The notes: a model not told the origin generated them from the sequence alone. Counted from the stretch's first letter, positions 11,756-18,962 are shown. The stretch: 32,000 nt of DNA from Candidatus Jordarchaeales archaeon (GCA_038858525.1 JAWCFL010000005.1:30001-62000), one strand, 5' to 3'. Numbers and translations: made by a program.

Positions 11756-13141
11756 ATGGGGGGTTACGGGTTGGTGGAGATCAAAGAAATCCTCCCTGGA
11801 CGCTTCGAGAGGATAGGAGCCCACTCCCACATAAAGGGGCTTGGGCTACGTGGGCTCAAAGCTGAATTAGTTGCTGACGGTATGGTTGGCCAAACCGAGG
11901 CAAGGGAAGCGGCGGGCATAGTGGTCAGAATGATAAGAGAAGGCAAAATGGCTGGAAGAGCTGTGCTTCTAGCGGGTCCACCCGGAACAGGCAAGACCGC
12001 TATCGCCATTGCCATAGCCAAGGAGCTCGGGCCTGATGTTCCAGTCGTGATGATCACGGGGTCAGAAATATATTCTGAGGAGATCAAGAAGACAGAGATC
12101 CTGACGCAAGTGATGCGGAAAGCGATAGGCGTCAGGATACATGAAATGAAGAAGATATACGAAGGTGTCGTCAAGAGCTTGGATGTGACTATGGCCAAAA
12201 ACCCCTACAACCCGTACCAGCAGGTCCCTCAGTCAGCAAAAGTAACCATTGCTACGAAGGACGAGTCGAAGACGTTCGAGGTTGGACAGACGATAGCTAT
12301 ACGCCTGATCAATGAAGGCGTCAGCGTGGGCGACGTCATAATGATAGATGCAGAAACAGGCAGGGTTACCCGCCTCGGAAAGGCTGAGTCACCTGAAGTC
12401 AAGCGGTATGACATAGAAGCGGAGAAGCCCATTCCGGTTCCAACAGGTCCCATACTGAAGGAAAAGGAGTTCGTTTACACGTTAACCCTCCACGACCTCG
12501 ACGAGATAAACGCTAGGAGAAGTAGCTTTTCAATATTCAGCATATTCGGAGGCGGAAGAGAAGAGAAAGAGATCGATCCTGAGATACGAGAAAGAGTAAA
12601 TCAAATGGTGAAAAGCATGGTCGAAGAGGGACGGGCGGAGATACTGCCAGGCGTCTGCTTCATCGACGAAAGCCACATGCTCGACATTGAAGCATACAGC
12701 TTCATAGCCAGAGCAATGGAGTCTGACCTAGCGCCAATAATAATACTCGCGTCGAACAGGGGCTTCACTAAGATAAGAGGAACAGAGCTGGTGTCACCAC
12801 ACGGAATGCCACTCGACCTGCTAGACAGGCTCCTCATAATAAACACTCGGCCATACAACGAGGAGGAAATCAGGGAAATACTCAAAATAAGAGCAAAGGA
12901 AGAAAAGATAGAGATAGAAGAGGAAGCCCTAGAATACCTAACCCAAATAGGGGTAAAGACTAGTCTCCGTTACGCTGTGCAGCTCCTAACGCCAAGCATG
13001 GAACATGCTAAAGAGGCGGGACACAAGAAAATAACTAAAGAAGATGTGCAGTGGGTGGAGAAACTCTTCGCCGATGTCAAGCGCTCAGCTAACTATGTGA
13101 GAAACCTAGAAAGAGAATTCATGATTTCAGAGCCAGCATAA
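11756..13141 (+). CDS. TIP49/RuvB-like AAA+ ATPase (RuvBL1/2 homologue)
   Basis: RIGAHSHIKGLGL, Walker A GPPGTGKT, Walker B FIDESHMLD, sensor ASNRG, GMPLDLLDR, TSLRYAVQLL. Confidence 0.98.
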   Translation: MGGYGLVEIKEILPGRFERIGAHSHIKGLGLRGLKAELVADGMVGQTEAREAAGIVVRMIREGKMAGRAVLLAGPPGTGKTAIAIAIAKELGPDVPVVMITGSEIYSEEIKKTEILTQVMRKAIGVRIHEMKKIYEGVVKSLDVTMAKNPYNPYQQVPQSAKVTIATKDESKTFEVGQTIAIRLINEGVSVGDVIMIDAETGRVTRLGKAESPEVKRYDIEAEKPIPVPTGPILKEKEFVYTLTLHDLDEINARRSSFSIFSIFGGGREEKEIDPEIRERVNQMVKSMVEEGRAEILPGVCFIDESHMLDIEAYSFIARAMESDLAPIIILASNRGFTKIRGTELVSPHGMPLDLLDRLLIINTRPYNEEEIREILKIRAKEEKIEIEEEALEYLTQIGVKTSLRYAVQLLTPSMEHAKEAGHKKITKEDVQWVEKLFADVKRSANYVRNLEREFMISEPA

Positions 13142-14789: not shown

Positions 14790-14861
14790 AGCACACACGA
14801 AGCCAACCGAGAAAACCAAACTCTCCAGCAAAACAATCACTCAACAAACAAGAACAAATAG

Positions 14862-14946
14862 CGGCCCCGAGGGGATTCGAACCCCCGACACCCGGCTTAG
14901 GAGGCCGGTACCCTCTCAGAACACATCCTGGCTGGGTTACGGGGCC
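14862..14946 (-). tRNA. tRNA-Arg(CCT) with a 10-nt D-loop intron (14915-14924, position 20a/21)
   Basis: GGCCCCG TA ACCC AGCCAGGAT [GTGTTCTGAG] A GGGT A CCGGC CT CCT AA GCCGG GTGTC GGGGG TTCGAAT CCCCT CGGGGCC G. All four stems pair and the mature length is 75 nt. Confidence 0.95.
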
Positions 14947-15046: not shown

Positions 15047-15143
15047 GCGGGCGTAGTCCAGCCTGGTCTAAGACGTCGGCCTGCCACGCCGAGGACCCGG
15101 GCGGCTAACACAAAGCCAGGGACTTCAAATCCCGGCGCCCGCA
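15047..15143 (+). tRNA. tRNA-Gly(GCC) with a 22-nt T-arm intron (15102-15123, position 53/54)
   Basis: GCGGGCG TA GTCC AGCCTGGTCTA AGAC G TCGGC CT GCC AC GCCGA GGAC CCGGG [CGGCTAACACAAAGCCAGGGAC] TTCAAAT CCCGG CGCCCGC A. Confidence 0.95.
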
Positions 15144-17016: not shown

Positions 17017-17032
17017 AGAAAGAAATATATAA
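17017..17032 (+). promoter_or_regulatory. BRE-TATA promoter of tRNA-Trp
   Basis: Purine-rich AGAAAGAA followed by ATATATAA, about 27-34 nt upstream of 17059. Confidence 0.65.
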
Positions 17033-17058
17033 CGTAGCAGTGAAAGATTTCCCTTGAT

Positions 17059-17257
17059 GGGGGCGTAGCGCAGCTAGAACGGCTTATAAAAAGTGGTAAA
17101 GTAGCGCGGCTGGCTCCAGAAGCAATGAGAACAAACTGGTGCGCTGACCGGAGATGATGACCTTCTGGAGCTCCGAGCTGGAGAGGAGTACCCCCAGAAG
17201 CACCAGTTGGTCGTGGGTTCACCCTTTACAGGGGGCCTTAAAGTCCCACCGCCCCCA
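17059..17257 (+). tRNA. tRNA-Trp(CCA) with four introns: 17078-17100 (18/19), 17120-17201 (37/38, containing nested 17184-17199) and 17221-17240 (56/57)
   Basis: Spliced product: GGGGGCG TA GCGC AGCTAG|GTA GCGC G GCTGG CT CCA G|A CCAGT TGGTC GTGGG TTC|AAGT CCCAC CGCCCCC A. This is a 74-nt canonical cloverleaf (199-23-82-20=74). Confidence 0.93.
17121..17179 (+). ncRNA. Intron-encoded box C/D guide RNA for tRNA-Trp Cm34 and Cm39
   Basis: AGC stem, C ATGAGAA, 12-nt guide CAAACTGGTGCG, D' CTGA, spacer, C' ATGATGA, 12-nt guide CCTTCTGGAGCT, D CCGA, GCT stem. The N+5 rule lands on C39 (17203) and C34 (17116). Confidence 0.92.
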
Positions 17258-17274
17258 TCAAGTTCACTATTTTT

Positions 17275-17961
17275 CTACTTTAATTCGCGATACTTAGGCT
17301 TCGCTCTGCCCGGAAGCTTTTCCCTAATCATTACGATTTTCTCCGGCTCAAATACTCCACACATGAACTCCGTAATCTGTTGTTCCTTTCTTTTTGCTTC
17401 ATGTATGTTGGGGTAGATCCTTCCTGCAGCTTCTTCATCTTCGTTGCTTAGCGTGCATGCGATGACCGCCCTGTCGAACTCGTCGAGCTGGGTGATGTTT
17501 CTCTCAAATGTCTCAGCAGCTCTCCATGACAAATGAATCATACGGATCCAGTTAAGCCAGCGAGTGTAAAAGTGTGCCTCCTCTGTTTCAGGAGTTCCTT
17601 TTGGGTTGCGGAACTCGCACTCATTCCACCATGGTATCTTCGCGTTAAGCCTTATTGCATGGTCATAAAGTCCCGTATTTATCAACTCGTCAACTAGCCG
17701 CCCGAAAACTAGGAGGTATGCTCCCGCCCTTTCATTGCCTCCTTCGTCGAAAAGCCTCTTACCCATGGAGACCATTTCCTCATCTATTTCTCTCGCAAGT
17801 CTCTCCGCAGCTTCAACTATCCTCCTGAACTTTTCCTCTTCACCTATGTCTCCCATTCTGAGTTTTTCAAGGCTTAAAGACCTAACTAATTCAACTGCTT
17901 CATCAGACAAAAGCAGTTTGAGAATTCTTTCGAAGTTCTCGTCGAACCTATCTCTCCTCAT
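17275..17961 (-). CDS. Hypothetical helical protein, no family recognised
   Basis: 228-aa ORF with RBS GGGGGAGG and natural composition, convergent on tRNA-Trp. Confidence 0.8.
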   Translation of the reverse strand: MRRDRFDENFERILKLLLSDEAVELVRSLSLEKLRMGDIGEEEKFRRIVEAAERLAREIDEEMVSMGKRLFDEGGNERAGAYLLVFGRLVDELINTGLYDHAIRLNAKIPWWNECEFRNPKGTPETEEAHFYTRWLNWIRMIHLSWRAAETFERNITQLDEFDRAVIACTLSNEDEEAAGRIYPNIHEAKRKEQQITEFMCGVFEPEKIVMIREKLPGRAKPKYRELK

Positions 17962-18347: not shown

Positions 18348-18962
18348 TTGGAAAGGGAGGAGTTAAATGTGCGTTTATGGTTACTTGATATTCTTGCTTG
18401 TCCGGCTGATGGATGTAAGCATTATCCATTAAAGCTTTCGATATTCGAGTGGGAGGACGATAGCGCAAAACGAATATTAAATGCAGGTGAGTCCTACGCT
18501 AAGGGTGATGTTGGAAATATGAAGAAAGAGTTGAAAGGTAGCGTTAAAGTTGATAAAGCTAAGGAAATAGTGGAGGATGAGTTAGCTAGGTCGTCTATGG
18601 AAGTAAATAAGTATATCTCTCTCTTTAAGGAGAAAGTGAATAGCATTTTTAGGAACGTAGTTGTAGATGAAACTGGGGCCTCTACTCAGTTAATAAACGC
18701 GATAATTAACTTCAACCCTCCTTCTAGCCTTGATGAGCCGTTCGAGAAAGCTATATACCTCGCTAATTGGCTTGCCTTCAAGGTGAACGTGCAAAGCGGG
18801 ATTTTAGTTTGCGAGAAATGCGGCCGCTTCTATCCGATAATAGAGACGATCCCCCATATGTTACCTGACGACTTGAGAGACAAAAAGGAGGATAAAGAGT
18901 TCCTTTCGAAGTGGCGGAAGTTTGTTCCAAAAAAGATACTAGAAGCGGAAGGCATCACGTAG
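18348..18962 (+). CDS. trm112: Trm112-family methyltransferase activator, long form with helical insertion
   Basis: RLWLLDILACP...HYPLKL at the N-terminus and VQSGILVCEKCGRFYPIIETIPHMLPD at the C-terminus. Probable start is the GTG at 18369, after GGGAGGAG. Confidence 0.88.
   Translation: MEREELNVRLWLLDILACPADGCKHYPLKLSIFEWEDDSAKRILNAGESYAKGDVGNMKKELKGSVKVDKAKEIVEDELARSSMEVNKYISLFKEKVNSIFRNVVVDETGASTQLINAIINFNPPSSLDEPFEKAIYLANWLAFKVNVQSGILVCEKCGRFYPIIETIPHMLPDDLRDKKEDKEFLSKWRKFVPKKILEAEGIT

What the first reader, a model, noticed from the sequence alone, without database searches (positions are those of the whole stretch)
17121..17179. The tRNA-Trp anticodon intron is a box C/D guide for its own Cm34 and Cm39
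Boxes C (ATGAGAA), D' (CTGA), C' (ATGATGA) and D (CCGA) are separated by exact 12-nt guides. The D guide pairs over 10 bp with GCTCCAGAAG and its fifth base upstream of D pairs with C34. The D' guide pairs over 9 bp with GCACCAGTT and its fifth base pairs with C39. Both duplexes span exon-intron junctions, so they target the precursor. This system is established for euryarchaeal tRNA-Trp (Haloferax, Pyrococcus; Cm34/Um39). Here it occurs in a probable non-euryarchaeal lineage, targets C39 rather than U39, and is coupled to extra introns.
Basis: partly seen in the sequence, partly recalled or inferred. Interest (0 to 1): 0.78.

Follow-up and report, generated by a model that had tools for sequence, protein, structure and literature searches.

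The report
Self-methylating tRNA-Trp intron in Asgard archaeon
The long intron in the tryptophan tRNA gene of this Asgard (Jordiarchaeia) archaeon carries a small guide RNA that very probably directs two sugar methylations on its own tRNA precursor; the system is well known in other archaea, and here it appears in a lineage where I found no report of it.

Summary
Window 17059-17257 is a tRNA-Trp(CCA) gene that ARAGORN and Rfam's tRNA model both miss, because it is interrupted four times.

- **The guide.** The 82-nt intron at 37/38 (17120-17201) holds boxes C, D', C' and D with two 12-nt guides. The fifth base upstream of D pairs with C34, and the fifth base upstream of D' pairs with C39. Both duplexes include intron bases.
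- **Conservation.** Boxes and guides are conserved in four related genomes.
- **Covariation.** Across Asgard lineages the D' guide covaries with its target: 5 of 9 pairs show changes on both sides.
- **Machinery.** The genome encodes fibrillarin, Nop5 and L7Ae-family proteins.
- **Closest family.** The best Rfam hit is sR40, the Pyrococcus tRNA-Trp intron, which has the same odd boxes (AUGAG.A and CCGA).
- **Lineage.** The closest named relative is a Candidatus Jordarchaeia MAG, an Asgard archaeon.

The novelty claims shrink. The system was listed in at least 29 archaea in 2008, including one crenarchaeon. C39 targets are known. Extra tRNA introns are a lineage-wide habit of Jordiarchaeia.

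New here: the guide is widespread in Asgard (64 of 151 genomes sampled), it is free-standing in one family, and in this genus a nested 16-nt intron interrupts the host splice motif. Earlier first-reader notes of this scan had already flagged the same stretch.

Verdict: a new member of a known kind, of moderate interest.

The parts
17018..17033 (+). Putative archaeal promoter (purine-rich BRE-like stretch plus TATA box, GAAAGAAATATATAAC)
   Evidence: Identical motif at the same distance upstream of tRNA-Trp in 4 of 5 related genomes and nearly identical in the fifth, while the flanks differ. The promoter function is inferred.
17059..17257 (+). tRNA-Trp(CCA) gene with four introns; exons 17059-17077, 17101-17119, 17202-17220, 17241-17257; CCA not encoded
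   Evidence: The in-silico spliced 74-nt product is called tRNA-Trp(cca) by ARAGORN. The unspliced gene is missed by ARAGORN and by Rfam's tRNA model. Orthologues exist in 4 relatives.
17078..17100 (+). D-loop intron (18/19), boundaries tentative
   Evidence: Placed by comparison with an Asgard tRNA-Trp that has an uninterrupted D-loop AGCCAGGUA (L023). Removal restores AGCUAGGUA. Its bulge-helix-bulge is weak (3 of 4 central pairs, two of them G-U), read by eye.
17120..17201 (+). Anticodon-loop intron (37/38), 82 nt, carrying the box C/D guide RNA
   Evidence: The 5' half of the splice motif is canonical: central helix CUCC 17114-17117 with GGAG 17180-17183, bulge AG|A, and outer helix AGC 17121-17123 with GCU 17177-17179.
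17121..17123 (+). 5' strand of the terminal stem of the C/D motif; also outer helix h' of the splice motif (pairs with 17177-17179)
   Evidence: Read from the sequence. The G-C and C-G pairs are conserved in the relatives.
17125..17131 (+). Box C, AUGAGAA (non-consensus at positions 5-6)
   Evidence: The UGA core is invariant in 5 genomes. Thermococcales tRNA-Trp introns use A-UGAGGA.
17132..17143 (+). D' guide, 12 nt; 17134-17142 pair with 17200-17208; G17139 pairs with C39
   Evidence: Covariation with the target in 5 of 9 pairs across 11 Asgard sequences.
17144..17147 (+). Box D', CUGA
   Evidence: invariant in 5 genomes.
17154..17160 (+). Box C', AUGAUGA (consensus); the 6-nt spacer 17148-17153 allows a K-loop with D'
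   Evidence: invariant in 5 genomes, while the spacer varies.
17161..17172 (+). D guide, 12 nt; 17162-17172 pair with 17112-17122; G17168 pairs with C34
   Evidence: Ten pairs, 98% of cells paired across 11 sequences.
17173..17176 (+). Box D, CCGA (GA invariant; the first two bases vary: CC, CG, TC)
   Evidence: CCGA is also the D box of the Pyrococcus and Haloferax tRNA-Trp introns.
17184..17199 (+). Nested 16-nt intron inside the C/D intron; its removal joins GGAG to GC|A and completes the canonical host splice motif
   Evidence: My bulge-helix-bulge scan finds central helix CUGG 17178-17181 with CCAG 17194-17197, and bulges AG|A and AA|G. That helix shows U-A in two genomes and C-G in two others (columns 76 and 94 of A5). 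The sister genus G004 lacks the insert and has GGAG-GC|A directly.
17112..17122 (+). Target of the D guide (positions 30-37 plus the first 3 intron bases); C34 = 17116
17200..17208 (+). Target of the D' guide (last 2 intron bases plus positions 38-44); C39 = 17203
17221..17240 (+). T-loop intron (56/57), 20 nt
   Evidence: Bulge-helix-bulge scan: central helix GGGT/GCCT, bulges TCA and TAA, 5-bp intron helix. Removal restores the T-loop UUCAAGU.
17269..17277 (+). Oligo-T tract, likely transcription terminator
   Evidence: A T-run lies within about 10-25 nt downstream of the gene in all 5 genomes. The terminator function is inferred.

Best explanation
The 82-nt intron at position 37/38 of this Jordiarchaeia (Asgard) tRNA-Trp(CCA) gene is a dual-guide box C/D small RNA, related to the pre-tRNA-Trp intron guide of Euryarchaeota.

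Inferred mechanism:
1. L7Ae binds the terminal C/D kink-turn (AUGAGAA with CCGA, closed by the AGC/GCU stem) and the internal C'/D' K-loop (CUGA, 6 nt, AUGAUGA).
2. Nop5 and fibrillarin then assemble on the RNA.
3. The D guide pairs with positions 30-37 plus three intron bases, which places C34 at the fifth pair from box D.
4. The D' guide pairs with two intron bases plus positions 38-44, which places C39 at the fifth pair from box D'.
5. The products are Cm34 and Cm39.

Both duplexes lose two pairs after splicing, so the preferred substrate is the unspliced precursor. The guide may act on its own molecule or on another one. Guide pairing and the splice motif use the same anticodon bases (CUCC 32-35), so methylation and splicing need alternative folds.

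Shown here: anatomy, register, conservation, covariation and presence of the protein genes. Inferred: RNP assembly, the methylations themselves and their order.
For: - **Anatomy.** Exact box and guide layout, with the N+5 register on C34 and C39.
- **Host gene.** It splices in silico to a tRNA-Trp(cca). It is the only tRNA-Trp I could find in the genome.
- **Conservation.** Boxes and pairing bases are invariant in four related genomes, while the D'-C' spacer, the non-pairing guide ends and the 3' tail of the intron vary.
- **Within-family compensation.** G004 has C43 instead of U43, and its guide has G instead of A at the paired position.
- **Covariation across 11 Asgard sequences.** 97.6% of guide-target cells pair. 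Five of 9 D' pairs change on both sides, including the two intron-terminal bases (GC, AA, AG). No shuffle of 500 reaches the covariation score. Slid registers pair only 35-48%.
- **Closest family.** The best Rfam family, and the only hit in the whole genome, is sR40, the Pyrococcus tRNA-Trp intron. It shares the unusual C box AUGAG.A and D box CCGA.
- **Protein genes.** Fibrillarin and Nop5 are adjacent on contig C17. There are two L7Ae-family genes and two EndA paralogues.
- **Expression signals.** A conserved promoter-like motif and an oligo-T tract flank the gene.
- **Precedent.** The system is experimentally established in Haloferax and Pyrococcus (cited in PMC2584109, PMC7994747 and PMC4090602).
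Against:
- The Rfam score is far below the gathering score (22.3 against 50 bits).
- Box C departs from the consensus at positions 5-6, and the first two bases of box D vary among relatives without clean compensation (G001: AUGAGAG with CGGA).
- The box layout alone is about what chance gives once per genome.
- The rows used for the covariation count were those in which I could locate a D' match. Lineages with a degenerate D' guide were left out, so the percentage paired is inflated.
- In Haloferax the intron and its methylations are dispensable (Joardar 2008, cited in PMC4090602), so conservation need not mean strong selection for methylation.
Confidence: 0.85

Rival explanations
1. Half-active guide. 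Only the consensus internal C'/D' pair works, giving Cm39. The terminal C/D pair (AUGAGAA with CCGA) is too degenerate to load fibrillarin on the D guide. Under this reading the D-guide complementarity is kept for a structural reason, such as holding the anticodon or timing splicing, and Cm34, if present, is made by another enzyme.
For: Many Asgard lineages keep the D-guide sequence CUUCUGGAG and C'/D' but have lost a recognisable terminal C or D box (L024, L026, L030, L041, L042, L044). So the complementarity can be conserved without a D box. The first two bases of box D drift among the close relatives.
Against: In this genome both GA dinucleotides needed for the kink-turn are present, with a 3-bp closing stem and exact 12-nt spacing. 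The same AUGAG.A/CCGA combination occurs in the Pyrococcus introns, for which in-vitro RNP assembly and guide activity were reported (Bortolin 2003, cited in PMC7994747; not read here). G5 of box C can pair with C2 of box D in place of the usual U-U.
Confidence: 0.1
2. Structural relic. The boxes are decayed remains and the intron-exon complementarities persist only because they help folding or splicing of a long intron. No methylation is guided.
For: In Sulfolobus solfataricus the tRNA-Trp intron is stable and complementary around positions 34 and 39, but lacks consensus boxes (PMC3326292). Haloferax tolerates loss of the intron.
Against: The canonical splice helix uses GGAG 17180-17183, not the guides, so the guides are not needed for the bulge-helix-bulge. 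C', D' and the GA cores of C and D are invariant where neighbouring bases vary. The register puts exactly positions 34 and 39 at N+5 in lineages whose sequences differ.
Confidence: 0.04
3. Chance resemblance: short box-like words and complementary runs in a GC-balanced intron.
For: The loose box pattern occurs about as often in shuffled genomes as in the real one.
Against: Two in-register complementarities of 10 and 9 Watson-Crick pairs to the host tRNA. Conservation in the close relatives, and matches to the guide model in 64 of 151 Asgard genomes at E <= 0.05. Compensatory changes between guide and target.
Confidence: 0.01

Closest known systems
Pyrococcus/Thermococcus pre-tRNA-Trp intron box C/D RNA (Rfam RF01297, sR40; Clouet d'Orval 2001, Bortolin 2003)
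   Same: Sits in the 37/38 intron of tRNA-Trp(CCA). Dual guide with 12-nt spacers aimed at C34 and position 39 (C39 is predicted for P. furiosus). Both duplexes span the exon-intron junctions. C box A-UGAG.A and, in Pyrococcus, D box CCGA (T. kodakarensis has CUGA). Short D'-C' spacer.
   Different: Only 22.3 bits against the family model, whose gathering score is 50. The host tRNA has three further introns, one of them nested inside this intron. The intron is 82 nt against about 60. Position 6 of box C is A rather than G, so only one Watson-Crick pair replaces the U-U and G-C of stem II. The lineage is Asgard, not Thermococcales.
Haloferax volcanii pre-tRNA-Trp intron (103-105 nt; Cm34 and Um39 found in the tRNA; Singh 2004, Joardar 2008)
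   Same: Same targets, same logic, D box CCGA. The outer helix of the splice motif is continuous with the C/D terminal stem.
   Different: Haloferax has U39, a long structured D'-C' insert, a strict alpha2 splicing endonuclease and a perfect splice motif. Here there are two EndA paralogues, and the host splice motif is interrupted by a 16-nt insert.
Pyrobaculum arsenaticum tRNA-Trp intron guide (listed in PMC2584109, Additional file 4)
   Same: A non-euryarchaeal tRNA-Trp intron with C, D', C' and D boxes and a D guide ...UCUGGAGCU. It comes from a lineage that is also rich in tRNA introns.
   Different: Consensus boxes (UGAUGA, CUGA). Thermoproteota, not Asgard. I did not examine its sequence context.
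Sulfolobus solfataricus tRNA-Trp intron (65 nt, stable circle; Danan 2012)
   Same: A long tRNA-Trp intron with complementarity around positions 34 and 39.
   Different: No consensus C and D boxes were reported there. Here the boxes are clear.
Free-standing archaeal C/D guides for tRNA anticodon positions (for example Pyrococcus sR49 for tRNA-Met Cm34) and eukaryotic intron-encoded snoRNAs
   Same: Same RNP chemistry. Pairing that includes intron bases of the pre-tRNA is also described for tRNA-Met.
   Different: Those guides lie outside their target gene. This one lies inside it. Eukaryotic host introns are spliceosomal.

Membership tests
Archaeal pre-tRNA-Trp intron box C/D guide | Lies in the intron at position 37/38 of a tRNA-Trp(CCA) gene | tested here: met
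   Removing 17120-17201 and the two loop introns gives an ARAGORN tRNA-Trp(cca) with a 7-nt anticodon loop CUCCAGA.
Archaeal pre-tRNA-Trp intron box C/D guide | Boxes C, D', C', D in order, with GA cores and spacers of about 12 nt | tested here: met
   ATGAGAA, 12 nt, CTGA, 6 nt, ATGATGA, 12 nt, CCGA. Boxes C and D are non-consensus outside the GA cores.
Archaeal pre-tRNA-Trp intron box C/D guide | D guide complementary to the anticodon loop, with the fifth base upstream of D opposite C34 | tested here: met
   G17168 pairs with C17116; 10 Watson-Crick pairs plus 1 G-U.
Archaeal pre-tRNA-Trp intron box C/D guide | D' guide complementary to the 3' strand of the anticodon stem, with the fifth base upstream of D' opposite position 39 | tested here: met
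   G17139 pairs with C17203; 9 Watson-Crick pairs. Covaries with the target across Asgard lineages.
Archaeal pre-tRNA-Trp intron box C/D guide | Both duplexes include intron bases, so the precursor is the substrate | tested here: met
   17120-17122 and 17200-17201 are intronic. The mature tRNA would keep only 8 and 7 Watson-Crick pairs (sequence).
Archaeal pre-tRNA-Trp intron box C/D guide | Canonical bulge-helix-bulge whose outer helix continues into the C/D terminal stem | tested here: inconclusive
   The 5' half is canonical. The 3' half becomes canonical only after removal of the nested 16 nt at 17184-17199.
Archaeal pre-tRNA-Trp intron box C/D guide | Cm34 and Nm39 present in the tRNA; the RNP assembles on the intron | not testable with these tools
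Rfam RF01297 (sR40) | Score at or above the gathering threshold of 50 bits | tested here: not met
   22.3 bits, E = 0.026 over 401 bases and E = 0.03 genome-wide. It is the best family and the only hit in the genome. By its consensus the model looks specific to Pyrococcus.
Box C/D sRNP system (general) | The genome encodes fibrillarin, Nop5 and L7Ae | tested here: met
   PF01269 at 324 bits and PF01798 at 223 bits, adjacent on contig C17; PF01248 twice.
Box C/D sRNP system (general) | Terminal kink-turn: closing stem, 3-nt bulge, tandem sheared G-A pairs | tested here: met
   Read from the sequence: stem AGC/GCU, bulge A-A-U, G17127-A17176 and A17128-G17175, then G17129-C17174 in place of U-U. 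L7Ae binding itself was not tested.

The most novel reading that the evidence does not exclude
In this genus the nested 16-nt intron acts as a timer. While it is present, the host intron cannot form its canonical 3' splice bulge, so the guide-bearing intron stays attached to the tRNA. That gives the C/D RNP time to methylate C34 and C39 on junction-spanning duplexes. Excision of the nested intron then licenses removal of the host intron.

More broadly, the tRNA-Trp guide would be ancestral to Asgard archaea. It would have been repeatedly remodelled: terminal boxes lost, moved out of the intron to a site downstream of the gene, or moved elsewhere. That would give a natural series for how intron-borne guides become independent genes.
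Probability: 0.15. Interest if true: 0.6.

Novelty: new member of a known kind. Interest (0 to 1): 0.4.

Why it matters
The tRNA-Trp intron guide is the classic case of an RNA that carries the guide for its own modification. Finding it with intact anatomy and guide-target covariation in Jordiarchaeia has three consequences.

1. **Age of the system.** Related elements match in 64 of 151 sampled Asgard genomes (20 of 27 families at E <= 0.05). This extends the system to the archaeal group closest to eukaryotes and supports the view that it is very old. The weakest matches may be other C/D RNAs.
2. **Annotation.** The gene is invisible to ARAGORN and to Rfam's tRNA model. This genome would therefore be scored as lacking tRNA-Trp unless multi-intron genes are modelled.
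3. **Side observations.** A nested intron interrupts the host splice motif, and one family has free-standing versions although a 2008 survey found the guide 'always intronic'. Both give testable handles on the order of methylation and splicing, and on how guide genes move.

None of this changes the known mechanism.

Tried and rejected
- **tRNA finders on the raw window.** ARAGORN and Rfam at gathering thresholds both miss the gene.
- **Rfam at the curated threshold.** Nothing was found. Only the permissive search shows sR40.
- **Papers not held.** Clouet d'Orval 2001, Bortolin 2003 and Hirata 2019 could not be read. What they show is taken from papers that cite them.
- **A single canonical splice motif for the 82-nt intron.** Rejected. 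The four bases next to the 3' bulge (AGAA) pair with only 2 of 4 bases of CUCC. The canonical partner GGAG lies 16 nt further upstream.
- **Box layout as evidence in itself.** Rejected, because the genome holds no more such layouts than shuffles do.
- **A second, intron-less tRNA-Trp.** ARAGORN with introns allowed finds none. Eleven anticodon-arm-like words in the genome are not visibly in tRNA contexts.
- **The first covariance model (R1).** It found only 15 of 151 genomes. The rebuilt model R2 found 64. In both searches only 32 first-look candidates per genome were scored, so a missing match is weak evidence of absence.

Full report
**1. What is at the coordinates**

- C ATGAGAA 17125-17131
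- D' guide 17132-17143
- D' CTGA 17144-17147
- a 6-nt spacer
- C' ATGATGA 17154-17160
- D guide 17161-17172
- D CCGA 17173-17176

The D guide pairs with 17112-17122 (ten Watson-Crick pairs and one G-U). G17168, the fifth base upstream of D, lies opposite C17116. The D' guide pairs with 17200-17208 (nine Watson-Crick pairs). G17139, the fifth base upstream of D', lies opposite C17203.

**2. The host gene**

ARAGORN and Rfam's tRNA model do not see a tRNA here. By hand, the acceptor, D, anticodon and T stems of a tRNA-Trp(CCA) span 17059-17257.

Removing 17078-17100 (D-loop), 17120-17201 (anticodon loop) and 17221-17240 (T-loop) gives a 74-nt sequence that ARAGORN calls tRNA-Trp(cca). In that numbering C17116 is C34 and C17203 is C39.

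Three bases of the D target and two of the D' target are intronic. After splicing, only 8 and 7 Watson-Crick pairs would remain.

ARAGORN with introns allowed finds only 11 tRNAs, and no tRNA-Trp, in the whole 2.09-Mb genome. The covariance model finds a single copy.

**3. Which organism**

A neighbouring protein is 83% identical to one from 'Candidatus Jordarchaeia archaeon isolate QC4'. The window also encodes a TIP49-type ATPase.

The genome is a 63-contig assembly, 92.7% complete. So this is an Asgard archaeon of the class that GTDB calls Jordiarchaeia.

Two papers already report that Freyr-, Jordi- and Atabeyarchaeia have introns in nearly all tRNA genes, often several per gene and often missed by software (PMC11291895; preprint 10.64898/2026.10.13.758758). 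The preprint does not mention tRNA-Trp, box C/D or methylation. In PMC11291895 the terms 'tRNA-Trp' and 'snoRNA' do not occur.

**4. Is it more than chance?**

The box layout alone is not. A loose pattern for C-12-D'-spacer-C'-12-D gives 2 hits in the genome and 0-3 in shuffled genomes. The case rests on three other points.

- **Register.** Two in-register complementarities to the host tRNA would each be very unlikely at a fixed position.
- **Conservation.** In four related genomes, C', D', the GA cores of C and D, and every pairing base of both guides are invariant. The D'-C' spacer, the distal ends of the guides, the first bases of box D and the 3' tail of the intron all vary. G004 has C43 instead of U43, and its guide has the matching G.
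- **Covariation.** On 11 Asgard pre-tRNA-Trp sequences, 97.6% of the 209 guide-target cells pair. Five of the nine D' pairs change on both sides. These include the two intron-terminal bases (GC here, AA or AG elsewhere) and position 41 (A, U or C). No shuffle of 500 reaches the covariation score. Sliding the partner by 1-3 columns drops pairing to 35-48%.

One caveat applies to the covariation count. The 11 rows are those in which a D' match could be located. Lineages with a degenerate D' guide were left out. The percentage paired is therefore inflated, but the compensatory changes are not an artefact of that choice.

**5. Relation to the known system**

With permissive thresholds, the best Rfam family over 17121-17177 is sR40 (22.3 bits, E = 0.026, gathering score 50). 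It is also the only sR40 match in the whole genome.

By its consensus, sR40 is the Pyrococcus tRNA-Trp intron. The same sequences are listed in Additional file 4 of PMC2584109. They show A-UGAGGA as box C, and in Pyrococcus CCGA as box D (T. kodakarensis has CUGA). That is the same departure from consensus as here, with G at position 5 of box C able to pair with C at position 2 of box D in place of the usual U-U.

That 2008 survey lists the arrangement in pre-tRNA-Trp of 'at least 29 archaea', among them Pyrobaculum arsenaticum, a crenarchaeon.

Cm39 is a recognised variant (PMC6313347), and C39 is the predicted target in P. furiosus (PMC7668247). For Sulfolobus solfataricus, consensus boxes were reported missing (PMC3326292).

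**6. Machinery**

The genome encodes:
- fibrillarin and Nop5, side by side on contig C17;
- two L7Ae-family proteins;
- two splicing-endonuclease paralogues of about 195 residues.

Two paralogues fit a heteromeric, broad-specificity enzyme. That is an inference from what is known of crenarchaeal enzymes.

A purine-rich stretch plus TATA motif, GAAAGAAATATATAAC, lies at the same distance upstream of the gene in four of the five genomes and nearly unchanged in G004. An oligo-T tract follows the gene in all five.

**7. Splice motif and the nested intron**

The 5' half of the host motif is canonical:
- central helix CUCC 17114-17117 with GGAG 17180-17183;
- bulge A36 G37 | A17120;
- outer helix AGC 17121-17123 with GCU 17177-17179, which is at the same time the closing stem of the C/D kink-turn.

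The 3' bulge GC|A38 lies 16 nt further on. In the sister genus (G004), GGAG is followed directly by GC|A.

The intervening 17184-17199 has its own bulge-helix-bulge: helix CUGG 17178-17181 with CCAG 17194-17197, and bulges AG|A and AA|G. One of its helix pairs is U-A in two genomes and C-G in two others. The U-to-C change weakens the host outer helix but preserves the nested helix.

I reached the same boundaries from the G004 comparison before reading an earlier first-reader note (e1-5425116) that proposes this nested intron.

Guide pairing and the splice helix compete for bases 32-35, so the precursor must switch folds. That is also known for the euryarchaeal system.

**8. Distribution in Asgard archaea**

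A covariance model built from the five close sequences found 15 of 151 sampled genomes. Rebuilt on those 15 hits, it found 64 of 151, in 20 of 27 families at E <= 0.05. Two large families gave 0 of 26 and 0 of 25.

Only 32 first-look candidates per genome were scored, and many assemblies are incomplete. I therefore say 'not found in those searched', not 'absent'. The weakest hits may be other C/D RNAs.

The aligned hits show three things.
- The D guide CUUCUGGAG and C'/D' are kept almost everywhere.
- The terminal C and D boxes are unrecognisable in several lineages.
- In one family the element is not in the intron at all.

In three of that family's loci where the upstream sequence is complete, the element lies about 65 nt downstream of a tRNA-Trp gene that has a short intron without boxes. 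In four other loci no tRNA-Trp lies nearby. In the one I paired by hand (L025), the guides still match junction bases of the precursor (GCTCCAG|ag and aa|ACCAATT). This departs from the 2008 statement that the tRNA-Trp guide is 'always intronic'.

**9. Verdict**

The element works like, and is best filed with, the archaeal pre-tRNA-Trp intron guides. It fails only the Rfam score threshold of a narrow family.

It is a new lineage for a known system, not a new system.

The additions of some interest are the breadth in Asgard, the nested intron and the free-standing variants.

No modification, expression or binding data could be obtained. The methylations themselves therefore remain inferred.

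Noticed in passing
window 17184-17199: A 16-nt intron is nested inside the C/D intron, with its own bulge-helix-bulge (CUGG/CCAG). Removing it creates the canonical host splice motif GGAG-GC|A. It is present in the four genomes of this genus and absent in the sister genus and sister family. One helix pair covaries (U-A and C-G).
   Followed up: partly
L025 (G096), L036, L043; also L034, L038, L039, L040: In one Asgard family the tRNA-Trp dual guide is a free-standing C/D RNA. It lies about 65 nt downstream of a tRNA-Trp gene that has a short box-less intron, or at a locus with no tRNA-Trp nearby. In L025 the guides still pair with junction bases of the precursor. A 2008 survey had found this guide 'always intronic'.
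   Followed up: partly
A4 alignment: L024, L026, L030, L041, L042, L044: Several Asgard lineages keep C'/D' and the D-guide sequence but have no recognisable terminal C or D box. Some (L019-L022, L026, L030, L042, L044) have lost D' complementarity. These look like half-active or decaying guides.
   Followed up: no
L005 (G004) about 1620-1690; L004 (G003) about 1648-1663: There are further lineage-specific introns just 3' of the anticodon stem, flanked by direct repeats of the exon sequence (GGCACCAGC in G004, TTGGT in G003). Their exact boundaries are therefore ambiguous.
   Followed up: no
window 14861-14946 (-) and 15047-15143 (+): Two more interrupted tRNA genes. Rfam aligns 15047-15143 as a tRNA with anticodon GCC (Gly) and a 29-nt stretch in place of the 7-nt T-loop, that is, about 22 extra nt. 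ARAGORN calls 14861-14946 an 86-nt tRNA-Leu(gag) with the anticodon at position 30, which looks like a mis-fold of an intron-bearing gene.
   Followed up: no
Standard tools would grossly under-annotate tRNAs in this lineage.
   Followed up: partly
window 11756-13141 (+) and 18348-18962 (+): A full-length TIP49/RuvBL-type AAA+ ATPase (473 bits to PF06068) and a 204-aa protein with a split Trm112-like zinc-ribbon match lie near the tRNA genes. I saw no link to the guide.
   Followed up: no
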